Positions 6,183-60,700 of a stretch of DNA of 64,000 bases are shown in pieces. Under the pieces are notes generated by a model, which saw nothing but the letters and a program-made list of their open reading frames with translations, did no database searches and was not told the origin of the DNA. Made by a program: the position numbers and the translations under genes. How positions within the stretch are numbered: position 1 is the first letter of the stretch; every line of letters begins with the position of its first letter. The DNA comes from Octopus vulgaris (lineage: Eukaryota): assembly GCA_951406725.2 (NCBI GenBank), contig OX597815.1, positions 62,744,001 to 62,808,000 of the forward strand. The letters are read 5' to 3'.

Positions 6183-6635
6183 GAGTGAGAGAGCAGTGCA
6201 TGCCATCAAATGAAACGGGTAAAATATATGAAGCCCATCATGACTACCCGTCTGATCAGGGTACGCTAGGCACATGCATCACAACCATATGTGTGCGACC
6301 TGGAGATCTCATATCAAGATAAACAGCAACTGACCTTACTGGTTGGACCCAGTTAGGATTTTCTTCTGGTCGAGTAACCCATCCCGCTCAAAAGGTCCCT
6401 GAATGAGGGTTGTTTAAGGATATTGAACGAAACACCCATGTTTCCAGAGGTGAATTATTCAAGCCCCAAAGAATTCCTCTCAACACATGGCTATGATGCT
6501 CCCCTACTACTACTGCTCGTGATCAGAGATGCACATATCGTCAGCCATGGTCAACTGGTTATGGTCAAACAACTGACAAGCAAATTTGTGGTATTGAGCA
6601 GAATATTTGCTGTGGCCCATCTTTTATACTAAGAC

Positions 6636-6637
<2 letters not shown>
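6183..6637 (-). mobile_element. Non-coding interspersed element, family C, 5'-truncated
   Basis: Reverse complement of 6800-7277; flanked by (ATT)n/(AAT)n. Confidence 0.85.
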
Positions 6638-6721
<84 letters not shown>

Positions 6722-6723
6722 AT

Positions 6724-7277
6724 GCCCTGATGCAGTACCAGGCAGTGGCTCTCATGGCTTCTGATCTTAACTGATTGGAAGTGTTATCATGTACATTGTT
6801 TTGTCTTGGTATAAAAGATGGTCTACAGCAAATATTCTGCTCAATACCACATATTTGCTTGTCAGTTGTTTGACCTTAACCAGTTGAGCATGTCCCTTAG
6901 TGGCTGACGATATGTGCATCTCTGATCACGAGCAGAAGTAGTGGGGGAGCATCATAGCCATGTGTTGAGAGGGATTCTTTGGGGTTTGAATAATTCACCT
7001 CTGGAAACATGGGTGGTTCTTTCAACATCCTTAAACAACTCTTATTCAGGGATCTTTTGAGCGGGATGGGCTACTCAACCTGAAGAAAATTCTAACTGGG
7101 CCCCACCTGCAAGGTCATGTGCTGTTTATCTTGATATGAGATCACCATGTCGCGCACATATGGTTGTGATGCATGTGCCTGGTGTACCCTTATCAGACGG
7201 GTAGTCATGATGGGTATATTGGGCTTCGTATATTTTACCCCAGTGTCACTTTGATGACATGAACTGCTCTCTCACTC
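6724..7277 (+). mobile_element. Non-coding interspersed element, family C, about 555 bp, apparently full length
   Basis: Starts GCCCTGATGCAGTACCAG, ends CTCTCTCACTC(AAT)n; four copies in the window, all in (AAT)n tracts. Confidence 0.85.
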
Positions 7278-12944: not shown

Positions 12945-12998
<54 letters not shown>

Positions 12999-14375
12999 GG
13001 AGCTCACCTCTAAATACCTCGACCGTGTCCTTGCCCCCTAGTGGCGTCTCTTCCCTCCCACAACCACGATACCAACCATGCTCTCCGGCTTTTCAACTCT
13101 TTCTCCTTTCCTCCCGGCTCCTCCAAAATCCTTTTACTATGGACATTCAGAGCCTCTATACCGTTATCCCTCACCACGAAGGACTGCAGGCACTTCAACA
13201 CTTTCTTGACCTCCGCTCCAACCCTGAACCTGACACCTCCACACTCATTCGTCTGGCCGAACTTGTCCTTACTCTTAACTGCTTCTCGTTCACGGGCGAG
13301 TTCTACCATCAGATCTCGGGAGTGGCCATGGGAACGCGAATGGGCCCCAACTATGCGAACCTGTTCGTTGGCTATGTTGAGGCCCAAATGTTCTCTAATT
13401 TCACTGGTCCCACTCCTGAACTATATGGTCGTTACATTGACGACATTATCGGTGCCACCTCACTCTCCCGTGAACATCTAGATTCCTTCCTCTCTTTTTT
13501 TCAATCTTTCCATCCAGCCCTCCACTTCACTTCCACTATCTCCAACACCTCTGTCTCCTTCCTCGACATTTCGGTTAGCATTCTTCACTCCACTCGCTCC
13601 AACACTTTCCCACTCTCTTACTCTTCCTTGCTCTCGGATTCTCCCTCGCTTTCTCTTAGGCGCTATCTTTTTCCATCTATCTCTCTCCCACTTATAAACA
13701 ACAAAAGATCTTGAGTAAGTTGAGAAAGAAAATATTTTGAAAGATCAGTTATGAATATCAGGCAGTGACAACGGAACGGTCTGCTTCAAGGCAGATAGCA
13801 AAACACTAACATTTAAAACAGACAGAAGAACTTGCGAGCTGAATATAAATTTAAAAATATTGGAAACCAAAGTTTGAAGGGATAGAATCTGAGGATAGTA
13901 GAGTCACCATGGCTGGCATTTCTTAACGACGGACAGCAACGTAGTGGCAGTTTAACGGCTGGCGTAAAATTTTGAACTTGATGTAAAAGAAAATTCCTAA
14001 ACACCTGCTCCTGTAAATTTTAATCCCCTTCCAAGCCCCATTTAGACCCCTTTTCACATTTTGGTTAATATAACCCGATTTCATTCGGGTCTACTCGGGC
14101 CACATTTTACAAGATGAGGAATTTTGTCATAGAGGTCACGCCTTTCATTTGAGGAAAAAATAGTTGCCATGCAAACTCGCCAGCATTTTTAACATAGGTG
14201 TGCATATTTTCAGCTCAAGCGACCATATAATGCATACATTATATATATACGCATTAAATATATATATGTACATATATACGCATGGAATATATATACACAT
14301 ATATATGCATTATATATATATGTGTGTGTACGCATTATATATATGTGTGTACGCATTATATATACAAATGTATAC

Positions 14376-19278: not shown

Positions 19279-19439
19279 TACATTATTTACATTATTTACA
19301 TTTTGACGGATTTTGTCCTCATCTTGTTTGTTGTTGACACAAAATTTCGGCTGACATACCCTCCAGCCTTCATCAGATGTCTTGGGGAAGTTTCGAACCC
19401 GGGTTCTCATTCCTAAGGTATTTTTCTATGTTGTTGTTG

Positions 19440-27470: not shown

Positions 27471-27852
27471 GAGTGAGAGAGCAGTGCATGCTATCAAAGT
27501 GACACTGAGGTAAAACATACGAAACCCAGTATATCCATAATGACTACCCATCTGATAACGGTACACCAAGCACAGAGGTGAATTATCCAAACCTCTGGCA
27601 ATTCCTTTCAACACACGGCTATGATGCTCCCCCACTACTTCTGCTCATGATCAAAGATGCACATATCATCAGCCACTAAGGGACATGCTCAACCGGTTAA
27701 GGTCAAGCAACTGACAAGCAAATCTGTAGTATAGAGCAGCATATTTGCCGTAGCCCATCTTCTATACCAAGACAGAACAATGTACATGAAAACCCTTCAA
27801 ATCAGTTAAGATCAGAAACCATGAGAGCCACTGTCTGGTACTGCGTCAGGGC
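27471..27852 (-). mobile_element. Family C element with internal deletion
   Basis: Both termini match 6724-7277; flanked by (ATT)n. Confidence 0.85.
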
Positions 27853-27994
<142 letters not shown>

Positions 27995-28567: not shown

Positions 28568-28799
28568 CATATATGTTTATATATGTATATACGTATGTAT
28601 GTATGTTTGTATGCATGCATATATATATTTATATATATATACATATATACATATATACACATATATATATATACATACATATACTTGGAAGATGATGCTT
28701 GACGTTCGATTATAGAATAATATAAATAATACATGTATATATGCATATATACATGCGTATATGTACATACCTACATCTATACGTATATATATAAGCATA

Positions 28800-29235
28800 C
28801 GTGGGAACAGGAGGTCATTTAACGTGTACTACAAAAGATACGAAGTACAAGTACATGAAACATGAACTATTCTTTCGAACAACGAAAGGCACAAATGGAA
28901 AACAAAACAAACAACATAAAGAACGACTCTTTATCAGTTGTTGGCTGGTTTTCCAGTCTCGTATTTCGAGCATTTAAGAGCAATATACGCTTTCGATAAA
29001 ACAGTTGCTCCTACAAAGCAAATTAAATAAAATTTGGGATTTTACTGAGGGCCAAAATAGGTAACACAAACAGGACAGTGAAAACAAACAGGAAGGGTTG
29101 TTACGCCTTAACGATGTTGTGATGGGGAACGCGTAAATCAAGCGTGGATAGGAGGCAAGCAAGAACACGTCTTCCTTGTTCCATTAGCCATCTTTCTCCC
29201 CCTAACTTGTGTATCTTTCTTTCTCTCCGTCCTGT
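28800..29235 (-). mobile_element. Non-coding element (probable PLE pLTR), divergent relative of 55515-56657
   Basis: Shared blocks CGCGTTC..GGCGT(T)AACA.CCCTTC..CTGTCCTGTTT.TGTTACC..GCTTT..AGGA; bounded by (TA)n. Confidence 0.7.
28926..28989 (-). ncRNA. Non-circularly permuted (pseudoknot) hammerhead ribozyme, core slightly decayed
   Basis: CGTAT-A-TTGCT / GCTC-GAAA-TACG / AACAA-CTGATAA-A-GAGT. Confidence 0.7.
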
Positions 29236-29263
29236 GCCCACGTATGCTTAATATATACATATA

Positions 29264-36848: not shown

Positions 36849-36988
<140 letters not shown>

Positions 36989-37323
36989 TTGGGGGCATCA
37001 TAGCCATGTGTTGAGAGGGATTCTTTGGAGTTTGAATAATTCACCTCTGGAAATATGGGTGTTTCGTTCAACATCCTTAAACAGCCCTTATTCAGGGACC
37101 TTTTGAGGGGGATGGGTTACTCGACCAGAAGAAAATTCTAACTGGACCCCACCTGCAAGGTCATGTGCTGTTTATCTTGATATGAGATCACCATGTCGCG
37201 CACATATGGTTGTGATGCATGTGCCTAGCTTACCCTTATCAGACGGGTAGTCCTGATGGCTATACTGGGCTTCGTATATTTTAACCCAGTGTCACTTTGA
37301 TAGCATTCACTTCTCTCTCACTC
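36989..37323 (+). mobile_element. Family C element, 5'-truncated
   Basis: Matches 6943-7277; in (AAT)n. Confidence 0.85.
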
Positions 37324-37453: not shown

Positions 37454-37756
37454 CAAGAAAAAAGTTGATAAATATGGAGACCTGAGAATTGAGATCGCTA
37501 AGATGTGACAGATACAAGAGTCGAACATAAATGTTACCTCTATTGTCATCGGAGTATTGGGTTCAATACCACCCAGTTTGAAAAAACGTCTGTAAACCTT
37601 AGAGATACTCTACAATCTAGATGTATTGCAAAGGTCGGCATTACTGGACCTGCACGCATATTAAGGTCCTTGTTGTGACTTGAAAACAGTATAAACCCCC
37701 GGTAGATACAATATCTTCAGTCAACAACCACACGATATTGTATATTGTGCGACGTC

Positions 37757-37758
<2 letters not shown>
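37453..37758 (+). mobile_element. R4/Dong-clade extreme 3' fragment
   Basis: KVDKYGDLRIEIAKM..IVIGVLGSIP..LQRSALL; (AAT)n on both sides. Confidence 0.75.
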
Positions 37759-37825
<67 letters not shown>

Positions 37826-37826
<1 letters not shown>

Positions 37827-39624
37827 TTCCCCATTAGAAGAGGAATATTCCAGGGAGACACGCTCTCTCCACTCCTTTTCTGTTTGGCACTGTCACCTGT
37901 ATCTGATATGCTAAATAGAACTGGATGCGGATATAAATGTTACGGCAAAACGATCAGCCACCTTTTATATATGGATGACCTAAAACTATACGCTGCAAAT
38001 GACAAACAGCTGGAAACACTATTAAAGACAGTTCATGGATTTACCAAAGAAATAGATATGAAATTTGGATTAGAAAAATGCGCCAAAGTAACCATGAAAA
38101 GAGGAAAACTAGTTAAGAGTAACAACATCACACTAGATAAAACCAATGAAATAAAAGAATTAGACCAAAGCCAAACTTACAAATACTTAGGAATCCATGA
38201 ACTAGATAAGACACAACACACACAAATGAAAGAGAAAATAAAAAAAGAATATTATAGACGAGTTAGATCAATACTAAACACAGAGCTCAATGCTAAAAAC
38301 AAAATAATAGGTATCAACACTTTAGCTGTCCCAGTTATAAGTTACAGCTACAATATCCTTAACTGGACACGAAATGAACTGACCAAAATAGATTGGAAAA
38401 CAAGAAAAATACTGACAGGATCTAGGATGCATCACCCAAAATCTGACATAGAAAGACTATATATACAACGTATAGAAGGTGGTAGAGGCCTTATACAGCT
38501 GGAAAACTACTATAAAATAACCACCATAGGACTGCAAAAATATCTACTTCAGAAGGAAGGAAAACTGATCCAGATAGCGGCAAAACACGAGCAAAACAAA
38601 AAACTGTTCTCAGTATTTAAGGAAGCTGATAAATACAAACAAGAAATCATACCACCTAATAAACATGAAGAAGAAGAAGAAGATGAAGAAACAACAAAAG
38701 CTATAAAACAAATGAAATCCAAACTAAAAATAGAACAGCAAACGAACCATGATAAAACGATGGCAAGAAAAGCCCCTTCATGGTAAATACTGGACTAAAC
38801 TAAACGCAAAAGAAATAGACAAAGAAAAATCCCAGCAATGGTTGAGAAGCTCAGGACTCAAAGCAGAAACAGAGGGATTTTTAATTGCAGCACAAGACCA
38901 AAGCCTCCCCACCAGAAATTACCAAAAACATGTAATGAAAAGAAATATTACAAGTAACTGCAGAATATGTGGAGATGGACAAGAAACAATAAATCATATT
39001 ATCTCTAGCTGCCCAGTCTTGGCTAAGAAGGAATATATTCACAGACATGACAGAGTTGGAACCTACATACATTGGAAGCTATGCCAACATTATGGAATAA
39101 CAACAGAAAAAAGATGGTATAGGCACGCACCAGAAAAGGTCACAGAAAACGAGAAAGCAATCATACTCTGGGATATGCCGATACACACAGATAGAGAAAT
39201 TAAGGCCAACAGACCAGATATAGTTGTCAGAGATCATGAAGAAAAAAATGCTTTCTAATTGATGTATCAATACCGGCTGATGACAACGTGTCTCTAAAAG
39301 AAATGGAGAAACTCTCAAAATACAAAGACCTGGAAATAGAGGTAACTAGAATGTGGAATCTGAAAACAGAAACAATTCCTATCATAGTAGGTGCATTAGG
39401 CATGATAAAAAAATATTCAGACAAATACATAACAAAAACACCAGGACTTACAAACACATATAACATACAGAAAATTGCACTACTAGGCACTGCACACATC
39501 CTACGCAGAACACTTTCCATACAATAACCATCAGAGCATCACAACAAATCACAGCACATACCCAAGGCACACAGAGCTGTGCTCGGTAGTGAAATGAAAG
39601 CACGCTATAAAAATAAAACTACTC

Positions 39625-49249: not shown

Positions 49250-51144
49250 TACACACACACATACAAAGATAAATTGATAGATACAACTACAACTGAGAGG
49301 GCAAACAAATATATGAGACACAGCCTAGTGCTTTTTTATGTTGATAAGCCTGGTACTTATTCTATTGGTTTGTTCTTGTGAAACCAGTAAGTTATGTGGA
49401 TGTAAATAAATGAACACCAGTTGTGAAGCAGTGATGAGGGCGAAACACAAATACACACACATAGACTTACATATATACATACATATATATACGATTGATT
49501 TGTTTCAGTTCCTGTCTACGAAATCCATATATATTGTTGTTGGCATCCTTTTTGTCTCGGAAGACAATGGAGTTGCGCATAAAATAATCTAGTCCATTTT
49601 TTATTTGGAAGGCGGCTGATGTTGAACCATTGTGCTGTATGGTGCCTTGCATATCATTAGGGAAAGATTTGATGATCCTCAGCAGCTTTGGTGGACATCT
49701 GATTTTTTGGAGCAGGATGAATAGGCCTTTTCTACTTACAAAGTCAAAGGCCTTTGTCAGATCAATGAAGGCCATATATAATGGCATTTTCTGCTCTCTG
49801 GACTTCTCCTGCAGTTGGCGTATGGAGAATATCATGTCAATAGTTGGTCTGCTGCTTCTAAAGCCACACTGCGATTCTGGATAAATTCGAGAAGCAAGCA
49901 GTTGCAGCCTGGACAGGATAATGCGAGCAAAGGCCTTTCCAACAGTGCTTAGAAGAGATATTCCACGGTAATTGTTACAATCACCACGGTCACCTTTGTT
50001 TTTGTAAAGCGTAATGATGTTAGCATCCCGCATATCCTGAGGGATTGTACCCTCTTCCCAGCACTGACACAGAAGATCATGAAGGTGCCGAAGCAGGATG
50101 GTGTTTTTGCCGGTTTTGATGATCTCTAAGGGGATGCCGCCTTTTCCCGGAGCCTTGTTACTTGCTAGGGAGACAATAGCCTTGGTGAGCTCTGCTATAG
50201 ATGGCAGACTGTGAAGTTCGCACATGACTGGCAAGATCTTGAGACCCTCGATTGCAGCCTCAGCTACCGTGGTCTCCCATGAGTAGAGATCCTGGTAGTA
50301 CTCCACCCATCTATCCATCTGCTTGCTTTGGTCCTTAATGAGATCTCCAGTAGTTGATTTCAGAGGGGCTGACTTGGTTGCGGATGGACCGAGGGCCTTC
50401 TTCAAACCAGTATACATCCCACGGGTGTCACCACTGTCAGCAGCTGACTGGATACTCTGACAGATTTCCTGCCAATACCTATTTGCACAGCGTCTGGCCG
50501 TCAGTTGGGTTTTATTTCTTGCCTTTCTGAGTTCTTCGAGTGACCTTGTAGAAGAATCACTCTTGTATAGCATCAGAGCTGCACGCTTTTTTTCGATAAC
50601 TGTTTCCAGCTCTGAGAGCCCAGCACTGAACCCATCTGGGTTTTGCCTTTCTCTCATGCCGAAAGTATCTATTGATATGGTATACAAAGCTTCCCTGATA
50701 TAATTCCACCTACTTTCAGCAGAGAAGGTTGGGCAGCTACTGAGGACAACCTTGATAGAAACAGTAAAATTTTGTCGCAGTGTAGGATCCTAGGTTCTGG
50801 CAGTGTTAATGCGTAGTCGACCCATTTTCTTGGAGTGTTGGACTTTTTAGGCAGAATCCTCCCCTTGCCTCTTATTAGTGAATGCTCTGTGTCACAATCC
50901 GCGCTGTGGTAACTACGGGTCAGTCGAACAGAATTCAGCTGATGCCAGTGGTAAGATCTTGGATGTTTCCAAGATGTCTTGAGGGATGTCTTGTTGGCAA
51001 AGAATGTGTTAGTGATGCACAGGTTATGGTATGTGCAAAATTCAAGTAGTCTCTGACCATTGTCATTCATGTTGCCAATACCAAAACACATATATACATA
51101 CATATATATACGATTGATTTGTTTCAGGTCCTGTCTACGAAATC

Positions 51145-55479: not shown

Positions 55480-55562
55480 TATATATATACATATATATAT
55501 ACAGATATATATATATTTTAATTGATTGCTTTTCGCAGGAAGGAAAGTTTTCTTGTCGAAGA

Positions 55563-55624
55563 TACGTCTCGCTTTTATCCTTCGAAACGTAGAGTAGATG
55601 AAACCATAGCGACTGAAGAAGGGG
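55563..55624 (+). ncRNA. Non-circularly permuted (pseudoknot) hammerhead ribozyme
   Basis: TACGT-C-TCGCT / CTTC-GAAA-CGTA / AGCGA-CTGAAGA-A-GGGG; all core nucleotides present. Confidence 0.78.
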
Positions 55625-56408
55625 TTTTTTCTTTGTGTTAATTGTCCTGTACTCTATTTTTTTGCTGTTTTTAAAAAATGTCCAGTTCCTTTGGTTTGTG
55701 TCTATGTTTTCGTTCTCATTGTGTTCGACGTCCTTTTGGTGTCCTGTACTCATATATGCGTGTATATGTTTATGTAGAGGTAGGTACGTACATATATGTT
55801 TATATATACGCATATGTTTAATTTATTTATAAATATATTATATGACGAAACGCACGCACCCCCTTAAGTAAGATTGTTCTTTATATCAAGTTTTGTTCTT
55901 GACATTAACTTTGACGTGCACTCTTAACCTTTCTGTCCCATCCATCCCTTTCTCAGCCTTCATTCTTTGATTTCCTTTTCCTCTACTTAACTTGTCTCTT
56001 CCTCTCTCTCATTCTTCACTCTCTCTCTCCCCCTCTCCATTCTTCATGGTTTCCTCGCAGCCATTCCCCCTCTTCTCTCCCTTTCTCATGCTCCTCCTCC
56101 CCCCTTCCCGTCGTTCACCCGCGACGTGGCTTCCGCTGCTGTCTCTCTGGCCTCGCCCTCTCAAGGTAATGGACGACATTCTTTTTGCTCCGCTCGTCGT
56201 TCATAAAAAATTCCGCGTTCGCAATACTTTTTTTCGTTCGGCGTTAACAGCCCTTCTTATCTTGTTTTTCCTTGTCCTGTCTTTTACTGTTTATAATTTG
56301 TACTGTCGTTACTGTCCTGTTTTTGTTACCATTTTTTACCCCTCTGCGAAAAGATCTCAGAATTTTAATTGATTGCTTTTCGCAGGAAGGAAAGTTTCTT
56401 GTCGAAGA

Positions 56409-56470
56409 TACGTCTCGCTTTTATCCTTCGAAACGTAGAGTAGATGAAGCCATAGCGACTGAAGAAGGGG
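56409..56470 (+). ncRNA. Non-circularly permuted (pseudoknot) hammerhead ribozyme, second copy
   Basis: Identical to 55563-55624 except one linker base. Confidence 0.78.
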
Positions 56471-56656
56471 TTTTTTCTTTGTGTTAATTGTCCTGTACTC
56501 TATTTTTTGTTGTTCCTTTGGTTTGTGTCTATGTTTTCGTTCTCATTGTGTTCGACGTCCTTTTGGTGTCCTGTACTCATATATGCGTGTATATGTACAT
56601 GTAGAGGTAGGTACGTACATATATGTTTATATATATGCATATATTTAATTTATTTA

Positions 56657-57530: not shown

Positions 57531-60700
<3,170 letters not shown>

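What the first reader, a model, noticed from the sequence alone, without database searches (positions are those of the whole stretch)
28926..28989. Divergent copy supplies covariation for the permuted hammerhead
Seen on the minus strand with the same strand order as 55563: CGUAU-A-UUGCU, 7-nt linker, GCUC-GAAA-UACG, linker with hairpin CUGG-AAAA-CCAG, AACAA-CUGAUAA-A-GAGU. Versus the 55.5-kb copy, helix III changes from UACGU/ACGUA to CGUAU/AUACG, helix I from UCGCU/AGCGA to UUGCU/AACAA (one mismatch), and helix II from GGGG/CUUC to GAGU/GCUC, with pairing retained and linker lengths nearly the same. G8 is mutated to A, so this copy is probably inactive.
Basis: seen in the sequence. Interest (0 to 1): 0.8.

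Follow-up and report, generated by a model that had tools for sequence, protein, structure and literature searches.

The report
Split-core rearranged hammerhead in Penelope retroelements
This is a worn-out copy of an abundant repeat whose family keeps all the catalytic letters of a hammerhead self-cutting RNA in a six-helix wiring that I did not find described; the same wiring appears, read by eye, at the tails of Naiad jumping genes reported to lack canonical hammerheads, so it is likely their missing ribozyme, although cutting is untested.

Summary
The motif is real. It is a hammerhead in non-circular S-G-C order, found three times in the window (copy A on the minus strand, B1 and B2 on the plus strand). 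Contigs from four runs show that A is a decayed member of an abundant family whose majority letters restore CUGAUGA and helix I.

The GAAA-side strand pairs better, and with covariation, to a strand upstream of the cleavage site. The bases after A9 instead pair with a far-upstream strand (helix V) beside a hairpin (VI). The A majority has 36 of 36 Watson-Crick pairs over six helices; against B2, 13 of 28 pairs change on both sides and none breaks. The core is therefore split between A9 and G10.1, outside the six permutations of Eckert 2023.

By eye, 6 of 23 published Naiad (Penelope-like) consensus 3' ends show the same layout, 6 show S-G-C and 2 show C-S-G. Naiads were reported to lack canonical hammerheads.

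Most likely this is the processing ribozyme of a non-autonomous Naiad-type element. Cleavage, transcription, host and parent element are untested.

The parts
28778..29263 (-). Copy A: 5'-truncated repeat in a (TA)n microsatellite, bounded by 35-nt inverted arms (91% alike)
   Evidence: homologous to B1/B2 along their shared length, including the 3' end
29184..29230 (+). Inverted piece of the family's upstream sequence at the 5' end of copy A (Penelope-like 5' inversion; inferred)
   Evidence: opposite-strand joint 29178/29230 in 4 of 4 runs (1-2 contigs each) and loose ends at 29183 with agreement 0.69-0.76
29048..29053 (-). Helix V, 5' strand (pairs with 28925-28930)
   Evidence: 6 of 6 WC with majority letters; this copy has 1 wobble and 1 mismatch
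29011..29047 (-). Helix VI hairpin (29047-29041 with 29017-29011), abutting helices V and II without spacers
   Evidence: 7 of 7 WC with majority letters; 3 pairs weakened in this copy
29006..29010 (-). Helix II, 5' strand, upstream of the cleavage site; begins with G10.1
   Evidence: 5 of 5 WC with 28968-28972; chance in a random 40-nt window 553 of 20000
28998..29004 (-). Joining helix J (the helix I-II connector), 5' strand; pairs with 28945-28951
   Evidence: 7 of 7 WC with majority letters
28978..28989 (-). Block S: helix III 3' strand (28989-28985), A17 (28984; predicted cut between 28984 and 28983, triplet AUA), helix I 3' strand (28983-28978)
28960..28972 (-). Block G: helix II 3' strand, GAAA, helix III 5' strand
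28945..28951 (-). Joining helix J, 3' strand (this copy has a private mismatch at 28948)
28931..28943 (-). Helix I 5' strand and core: CUGAUAA in this copy, CUGAUGA in the family
   Evidence: 28932 reads G in 97, 95, 99 and 99.6% of depth in the four runs
28925..28930 (-).
56338..56471 (+). Copy B2: complete six-helix motif with intact core CUGAAGA and triplet GUC (V 56338-43/56466-71; VI 56344-53/56376-85; II 56386-91/56424-29; J 56394-98/56446-50; III 56409-13/56433-37; I 56415-19/56454-58)
   Evidence: 37 pairs in these ranges, 36 WC and 1 G.U
55516..55625 (+). Copy B1: 5'-truncated partial tandem copy 846 nt upstream of B2; starts inside the helix VI loop, so it lacks the 5' strands of V and VI
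   Evidence: its one difference from B2 over 55563-55625 swaps U-A for U.G in helix J
55569..56414 (+). 846-nt unit between the two predicted cut sites; no credible reading frame (longest 133 aa, low complexity, no Pfam hit)

Best explanation
Copy A is a decayed member of an abundant repeat family that keeps a six-helix RNA fold around intact hammerhead core letters, and this fold is likely a self-cleaving hammerhead, split between A9 and G10.1, that would cut the transcripts of a probably non-autonomous Naiad-type Penelope-like retroelement. Order 5' to 3': V5', hairpin VI, II5', J5', III3', cut site, I3', II3'-GAAA-III5', J3', I5'-CUGANGA, V3'. This equals the published C-S-G/S-G-C wiring with a two-helix domain (V and VI) inserted at the 9/10.1 link and the chain opened in helix V. 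Shown: letters, pairing, covariation, family majority, truncated and partial-tandem insertions in (TA)n. Inferred: the 3D fold; cleavage after AUA/GUC; release of a unit-length RNA (846 nt for B) from read-through of partial tandems, possibly circularised as in animal retrozymes; mobilisation by a Naiad reverse transcriptase/endonuclease.
For: Family majority at A: 11 places in 28925-29053 differ from the window in all four runs. Nine lie in helices and improve 8 of 8 pairs touched, one restores G8, and one is in a linker, giving 36 of 36 WC pairs. B2, a window sequence with no majority letters used, forms the same six helices. A majority against B2: 13 of 28 pairs in helices I, II, III, V and VI change on both sides and none breaks (counted by hand). 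G10.1-C11.1 and A15.1-U16.1 stay fixed while their neighbours covary. The four-helix descriptor finds 3 loci in the window and 2 in 500 shuffled windows. Helix J sits where Eckert's experimentally required I-II helix sits: 3' of II5' and 5' of I5'. By eye, the same six helices occur on the sense strand at the 3' end of Naiad_Obim, Ovul, Esco, Amil, 3_Chem and EuTe; in four of these six no G follows the core within 0-1 nt. Context fits Naiads as Craig 2021 describes them: (TA)n targets, 5' truncation, partial tandems, inverted 5' copies.
Against: No cleavage or transcript data: the only 'RNA' run laid is a guess, and contigs show no ends. No hammerhead with a broken 9/10.1 link was found tested in the papers read; the crystallised pseudoknot hammerhead keeps it intact. 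Plain folding of B2 favours V (0.79), VI (0.90) and I (0.55) but not II, J or III (all <0.04), and the z-score of -1.41 is not significant (pseudoknots are not modelled). Helices V and VI in A were drawn after seeing the majority letters, so the 13 in 100000 null is post hoc. Only 40 of 91 variant rows were shown, and letters are unphased; R-scape was not run. The window gives two independent sequences only. No sequence link to a Naiad ORF was found. 9 of 23 Naiad 3' ends showed nothing, and the Naiad readings are by eye on consensus sequences; Obim and Ovul are near-identical. My prospective test on two further supplement parts was not triggered. In A, B, Obim and Ovul a downstream G could still pair with C11.1.
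Confidence: 0.62

Rival explanations
1. Plain type-SGC hammerhead: helix II is formed by the bases after A9 plus one extra base, and the upstream strands (II5', V5') are an off-switch that sequesters both helix II strands until the RNA is truncated or refolded.
For: A 4-bp downstream helix II is possible in A and B. Published SGC ribozymes and PLE hammerheads often have one extra base after A9. B1 lacks V5' yet keeps an intact core. Six Naiads use a downstream helix II.
Against: Downstream II is 2-3 times weaker and 2 of its 4 pairs are G.U in both families. It is absent in Amil, 3_Chem, EuTe and Esco, which keep an intact core. Helix J is anchored to the upstream strand, not the downstream one.
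Confidence: 0.12
2. Hybrid, like the pseudoknot hammerhead: a downstream G supplies only the 10.1-11.1 pair, and the upstream strand continues helix II coaxially.
For: One-pair stem II plus a pseudoknot helix is an active, solved layout. A, B, Obim and Ovul have G one base after A9.
Against: The upstream strand begins with G opposite position 11.1 in A, B and all six Naiads; four of those Naiads have no G there downstream; the downstream G is part of perfectly paired helix V in A and B2.
Confidence: 0.07
3. The fold is conserved but no longer catalytic, or only weakly so; it serves as a 3'-end recognition or priming signal for the element's reverse transcriptase.
For: PLE hammerheads cleave weakly in vitro. 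Several Naiads thrive with no hammerhead seen (9 of 23). Helices V and VI crowd the core.
Against: C3-A9, G12-A15.1, U16.1 and a non-G at position 17 are all kept while the stems turn over, across two window families and several animal phyla. That pattern is expected of catalysis.
Confidence: 0.12
4. The ribozyme is as described, but its carrier is not Naiad-derived: it is another Penelope clade, a LINE/SINE tail, or a MITE defined by the 35-nt inverted arms.
For: No Naiad ORF was found next to A or B; other PLE relics occur in the window. (TA)n targeting is shared with Neptune. A has terminal inverted arms.
Against: B has direct partial tandems and no inverted arms were seen; the A arm is a copy of the 3' end joined to an inverted internal piece. 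Other PLE clades carry type I hammerheads. The split layout was seen only in Naiads, though no other clade's consensus sequences were read.
Confidence: 0.2
5. Chance arrangement in repetitive DNA.
For: The descriptors were written after seeing the motif; no Rfam hammerhead model matches A or B2.
Against: 1 in 200 and 2 in 500 shuffled windows; the family majority repairs every weakened pair; 13 of 28 pairs show compensatory change.
Confidence: 0.01

Closest known systems
Type-SGC and type-CSG non-circularly permuted hammerheads (Eckert et al. 2023, PMC10085705; read: abstract, sections 4, 13-16, 18 part 1, two supplement searches)
   Same: Core letters; S before G before CUGANGA; short I3'-to-II3' linker; a helix joining the far sides of stems I and II.
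   Different: Block C is not contiguous: II5' lies upstream of S, and helices V and VI are inserted between A9 and G10.1, which that paper assumed cannot happen beyond 1-2 nt. Their tested SGC and CSG examples are IMG/M metagenome or metatranscriptome sequences; this is a chromosomal animal repeat.
Naiad Penelope-like elements (Craig et al. 2021, PMC8557442; read: passages, File S1 part 1, 9 of about 20 parts of File S5)
   Same: (TA)n target, 5' truncation, partial tandem, inverted 5' piece; the same six-helix motif near the 3' end in 6 of 23 consensus 3' ends read by eye.
   Different: A and B encode no protein and no ORF link is shown. The paper reports no canonical hammerhead in Naiads, only 'core' and 'half-core' matches.
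Type I minimal hammerheads of PLE pseudo-LTRs and animal non-LTR retrozymes (PMC4209133 and PMC7229834, passages; bioRxiv 10.64898/2026.07.22.740005, part 1 of 5 and passages)
   Same: Hammerhead in the repeated end of a Penelope-like or non-autonomous element; tandem copies bracket a unit-length RNA.
   Different: Those are type I (C-G-S) with a weak palindromic helix III that works as a dimer. Here helix III is a full 5 bp and the order is non-circular.
Pseudoknot (PK) hammerhead, PDB 8YDC (PMC11300833; read: parts 1-2 of 6 and passages)
   Same: Most of the helix II position is supplied by a strand from upstream.
   Different: A9-G10.1-C11.1 stays contiguous, the block order is circular, and there is no helix V or VI.

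Membership tests
Hammerhead ribozyme | Core CUGANGA and GAAA | tested here: met
   Intact in B1, B2 and the A family majority; copy A itself has G8A
Hammerhead ribozyme | A15.1-U16.1 pair, non-G at position 17, G10.1-C11.1 pair | tested here: met
   AUA and GUC triplets; pair tables
Hammerhead ribozyme | Helices I-III supported by covariation | tested here: met
   Double changes 2 of 5, 3 of 5 and 4 of 5 pairs, A majority against B2; two independent sequences only, R-scape not run
Hammerhead ribozyme | Site-specific self-cleavage | not testable with these tools
   Contigs show no RNA ends
Hammerhead ribozyme | Match to an Rfam hammerhead model | tested here: not met
   No hammerhead family at E up to 10 on A or B2; expected if the library's models are of the circular orders only (not checked)
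Type-SGC hammerhead (Eckert 2023) | Order S, then G, then CUGANGA | tested here: met
Type-SGC hammerhead (Eckert 2023) | Block C contiguous: II5' within 1-2 nt of A9 | tested here: not met
   The best helix II partner is upstream and the downstream bases form helix V; a weak downstream alternative remains possible in A and B
Type-SGC hammerhead (Eckert 2023) | Helix joining the far sides of stems I and II | tested here: met
   Helix J, 7 bp in the A majority and 5 bp in B2, when II5' is taken upstream
Naiad Penelope-like element | ORF with N-terminal GIY-YIG endonuclease and RT | tested here: not met
   No ORF in A or in the 846-nt B unit; at most a non-autonomous derivative
Naiad Penelope-like element | (TA)n insertion, 5' truncation, partial tandem, inverted 5' copy | tested here: met
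   these features are shared with other PLE clades
Naiad Penelope-like element | 3'-end sequence homology to an autonomous Naiad | tested here: inconclusive
   Same RNA layout by eye; no alignment was possible and no genome is held
Animal non-LTR retrozyme | Type I hammerhead in each tandem unit | tested here: not met
   Only S-G-C hits
Animal non-LTR retrozyme | Abundant circular monomer RNA | not testable with these tools
   Only a run guessed to be RNA was laid, and on A

The most novel reading that the evidence does not exclude
Naiad retroelements and their non-autonomous derivatives carry active hammerheads in non-circular wirings (S-G-C, C-S-G and an undescribed six-helix form whose catalytic core is split between A9 and G10.1). 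Non-circular hammerheads would then be a high-copy feature of genomes across several animal phyla, the list of six possible permutations would be incomplete, and the reported lack of canonical hammerheads in Naiads would reflect the descriptors used.
Probability: 0.55. Interest if true: 0.92.

Novelty: new variant of a known kind. Interest (0 to 1): 0.85.

Why it matters
It turns a stated puzzle into a bench test with named sequences and exact predicted cut sites. Craig 2021 reported that Naiads lack canonical hammerheads and show only 'half cores'. It also challenges the assumption behind the six-permutation scheme, that CUGANGA and helix II cannot be separated. If the motif cleaves, hammerhead counts in animal genomes are underestimated by current descriptors and by Rfam. 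The C-S-G form, known from two sequences, gains covarying genomic examples in nematodes. The 9/10.1 link would become a natural insertion point for whole RNA domains, useful for ribozyme engineering. An 846-nt unit bracketed by two cut sites would be a retrozyme-like element with a new ribozyme layout.

Tried and rejected
No genome is held for the window, so no genome-wide alignment was possible.

Rfam on the whole window: the 150 rows shown of 361 were microsatellite artefacts. Focused scans of A and B2 gave noise only. The whole-window repeat search was swamped by microsatellites.

Family pattern searches: 1 hit in metagenome contigs (L001, inside prokaryotic coding DNA, no helices by eye; rejected as chance), 0 in viral contigs, 0 in GTDB genomes.

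3' splice-site idea upstream of the motif: rejected. The AG is a minority (65-74% of depth reads G at 29012) and the letters belong to helix VI.

My first joining-helix idea for B used the bases after the core; I dropped it once helix V was seen. The alternative register, that B had lost two core bases, was dropped because the upstream strand explains the II3' letters. One search indexed the A upstream strand one base off and included G12 in the B2 duplex and null; one search corrects both.

MITE reading: kept only as a rival. Early guesses at the host (shrimp, then octopus) rest on recall of repeat patterns and were not tested.

Row dropped before the count: the minor second letter at 29046 (10-27% of depth), which would still pair.

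Naiad 3' ends with no hammerhead seen: 1_Chem, 2_Chem, 4_Chem, Ppla, Omin, Adux, 1_Skow, Ebur, Tama. Esco was first scored as none and re-read as the split type with imperfect helix II.

The prospective test for helices V and VI on supplement parts 17 and 27 gave no new split-type case, so no verdict.

Scan look-ups by sequence and by place found nothing.

Full report
Observation. The comparison copy at 55563 is on the plus strand, and a second one lies 846 nt further at 56409. I call these A, B1 and B2. They are homologous along their shared length, including the 3' end that runs into (TA)n. A descriptor scan over all six block orders and both strands returned three hits, all in the order cleavage site, GAAA, CUGANGA; 200 shuffled windows gave one relaxed and no strict hit (descriptor written post hoc). 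That order is type SGC of Eckert et al. 2023 (PMC10085705). Rfam has no matching hammerhead model at A or B2.

Family evidence. No genome is held. B2 words occur in 20 of 24 listed runs from 10 studies, one of them only at a 0.05 share. Four runs laid on A at 80% likeness gave 3981, 4976, 2730 and 623 contigs, so the family is abundant; depth is not a copy number. Only 40 of 91 variant rows were shown and they are unphased. G8 is restored in 95-99.6% of depth. The helix I mismatch is repaired on the 3' strand, with a sixth pair added.

Helix II is elsewhere. The strand before GAAA pairs with a strand about 15 nt upstream of block S: 5 WC pairs in A and 6 in B, against 4 pairs with wobbles downstream (-6.2 and -6.5 against -2.9 and -2.5 kcal/mol). 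Random 40-nt windows reach this in 553 and 254 of 20000 draws, and three of five pairs change on both sides between the families. Just 3' of this strand lies a helix (J) to the bases just 5' of helix I. That is the position of the stem I-II connector that Eckert showed to be required for cleavage. A four-helix descriptor finds the three copies, and 2 loci in 500 shuffled windows. The bases directly after A9 pair with a strand further upstream (helix V), and a hairpin (helix VI) fills the gap to G10.1 with no spacer. With majority letters A has 36 of 36 WC pairs over six helices. Of 11 majority differences in 28925-29053, nine lie in helices and improve all 8 pairs they touch, one is G8 and one is in a linker. 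V and VI were drawn in A after seeing these letters, so that call's null (13 in 100000) is post hoc; B2 shows both helices without any majority letters. A majority against B2 gives 13 double changes in 28 pairs of helices I, II, III, V and VI, none broken (hand count). Against this, nested folding of B2 favours only V, VI and I, and its z-score is -1.41; pseudoknots are not modelled. B1 starts inside the helix VI loop and lacks V5' and VI5'.

Element. A sits in (TA)n with 35-nt inverted arms (91%) and an inverted internal piece at its 5' end (joint and loose ends). B is a partial tandem with an 846-nt non-coding unit. Craig et al. 2021 (PMC8557442, passages) describe these features for Naiad Penelope-like elements. 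They also report that Naiads lack canonical hammerheads, and that some show a 'core' or 'half core'.

Naiad consensus sequences. I read 9 of about 20 parts of their File S5, covering 23 of 54 3' ends, by eye only. Five elements are named by file order because their headers were not seen (1_Chem, Hcon, Obim, Sdum, Ebur). Six show the split six-helix layout on the sense strand: Obim and Ovul (near-identical, one mismatch each in V and VI), Esco (imperfect II), Amil, 3_Chem and EuTe. In Amil, 3_Chem, EuTe and Esco no G follows the core within 0-1 nt, so a downstream helix II is not available. Six show S-G-C with a downstream helix II: 4_Dst clearly, with a long stem-closed insert; 1-3_Dst with 2 pairs and a bulged A; Smim irregular; Sdum with two core mismatches. 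Two nematode elements (Hcon, Hpol) show C-S-G with perfect, covarying helices. Nine show nothing. A prospective test on the last two parts was not triggered.

Mechanism. Shown: letters, pairings, covariation, decay of copy A, insertion anatomy. Inferred: the RNA folds as a hammerhead in which A9 continues into helix V and G10.1 is reached from helix VI. Topologically this is the C-S-G form with its front piece (J strand, helix I strand, core) moved to the 3' end. It would cut after AUA (28984) or GUC (55568, 56414), and read-through of a partial tandem would release a unit-length RNA, as described for animal retrozymes (PMC7229834, passages). A Naiad RT/endonuclease would reinsert it into (TA)n. 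None of these steps was tested. The laid 'RNA' run is a guess, so transcription is not shown. The host was not determined, and no ORF link to a Naiad was found.

Comparison. It works like a hammerhead and meets the sequence criteria, but it fails the contiguous block C of type SGC, so I do not file it there. The PK hammerhead keeps A9-G10.1 intact (PMC11300833). Natural core variations in Perreault 2011 (PMC3088659, passages) are insertions of a few bases. PLE hammerheads are type I with one extra base at 9/10.1 (PMC4209133, passages).

Novelty searches in the held library. 'non-circular permutations' + hammerhead, 8 papers, 6 listed; 'type-SGC', only Eckert; Naiad + Penelope-like + hammerhead, 4 papers; Naiads + ribozyme since 2022, 1 unrelated; 'rearranged hammerhead' + retrotransposon, only Eckert. 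Most of these I saw as listings only; none that I opened describes this layout or non-circular hammerheads in retroelements. PMC13725137 (passages) cites variants with additional helices to Weinberg 2015, which I did not read, and to Forgia 2023 (PMC10162972, passages, nothing relevant seen; its supplement was not read). Subscription journals and the supplements of the bioRxiv preprint were not visible, so prior description cannot be excluded. Unchecked notes of this scan (seen after I had reached this reading) report a phage hammerhead opened at the same link and another Penelope-like element with a rearranged hammerhead; they are leads, not support.

Verdict. Confidence is high in the six-helix structure (about 0.9), moderate in catalysis (about 0.75) and moderate in Naiad origin (about 0.65-0.7). 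Interest 0.85.

Noticed in passing
window 19335-19390, minus strand: Canonical-order (type I) minimal hammerhead with CUGAUGA, one extra A and a 6-bp helix II; helix III is degenerate. It is the only such hit in the window.
   Followed up: partly
PMC8557442 File S5, Naiad_Hpol and the element before it (Hcon by order): Perfect C-S-G hammerheads with four covarying helices in nematode Naiads, read by eye; this order was known from only two sequences.
   Followed up: partly
PMC8557442 File S5, Naiad-1 to -4_Dst, Smim, Sdum: S-G-C hammerheads with long inserts between helix I and helix II strands; stem-closed in 4_Dst; 1-3_Dst share a 2-bp helix II with a bulged A before GAAA.
   Followed up: partly
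PMC8557442 File S5, Naiad-1, -2, -4_Chem and 1_Skow 3' ends: Other conserved, apparently structured motifs, not hammerheads, are shared among these 3' UTRs; possibly another ribozyme or signal.
   Followed up: no
window 28947 and 28992 (loose ends): Further subfamilies with different helix III letters after GAAA and the same GAGUAGA linker motif; low agreement (0.57-0.81), hints only.
   Followed up: no
window 28978 and 28980: Two private changes make the helix I 3' strand of copy A resemble the helix II 3' strand, so plain folding pairs it with the upstream II5' strand; chance or local templating.
   Followed up: no
window 29014-29045: Laid depth peaks over the helix VI loop and falls upstream of it, and B1 starts at the homologous place; possibly a preferred truncation point or a motif shared by subfamilies. 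Depth is not a copy number.
   Followed up: no
window 59092-59859, minus strand: Relic of a Penelope-like element with a C-terminal GIY-YIG-like domain interrupted by an (AAT)n run; recognised by recalled motifs, no Pfam hit. No hammerhead seen by eye in 58300-59200.
   Followed up: partly
window 12947-13711 (+), 37695-39258 (+), 49467-50789 (-): Reverse transcriptase relics (Pfam RVT_1 and zf-RVT); the first looks Penelope-type and the last RTE-type by recalled motifs.
   Followed up: no
window 6234-7214, with related arms at 27573-27855 and 36982-37259: Another repeat family with inverted arms of about 300 nt, 90-92% complementary.
   Followed up: no
L001 618-661: Only metagenome match to the family pattern; lies in prokaryotic coding DNA with no helices seen; chance.
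   Followed up: yes
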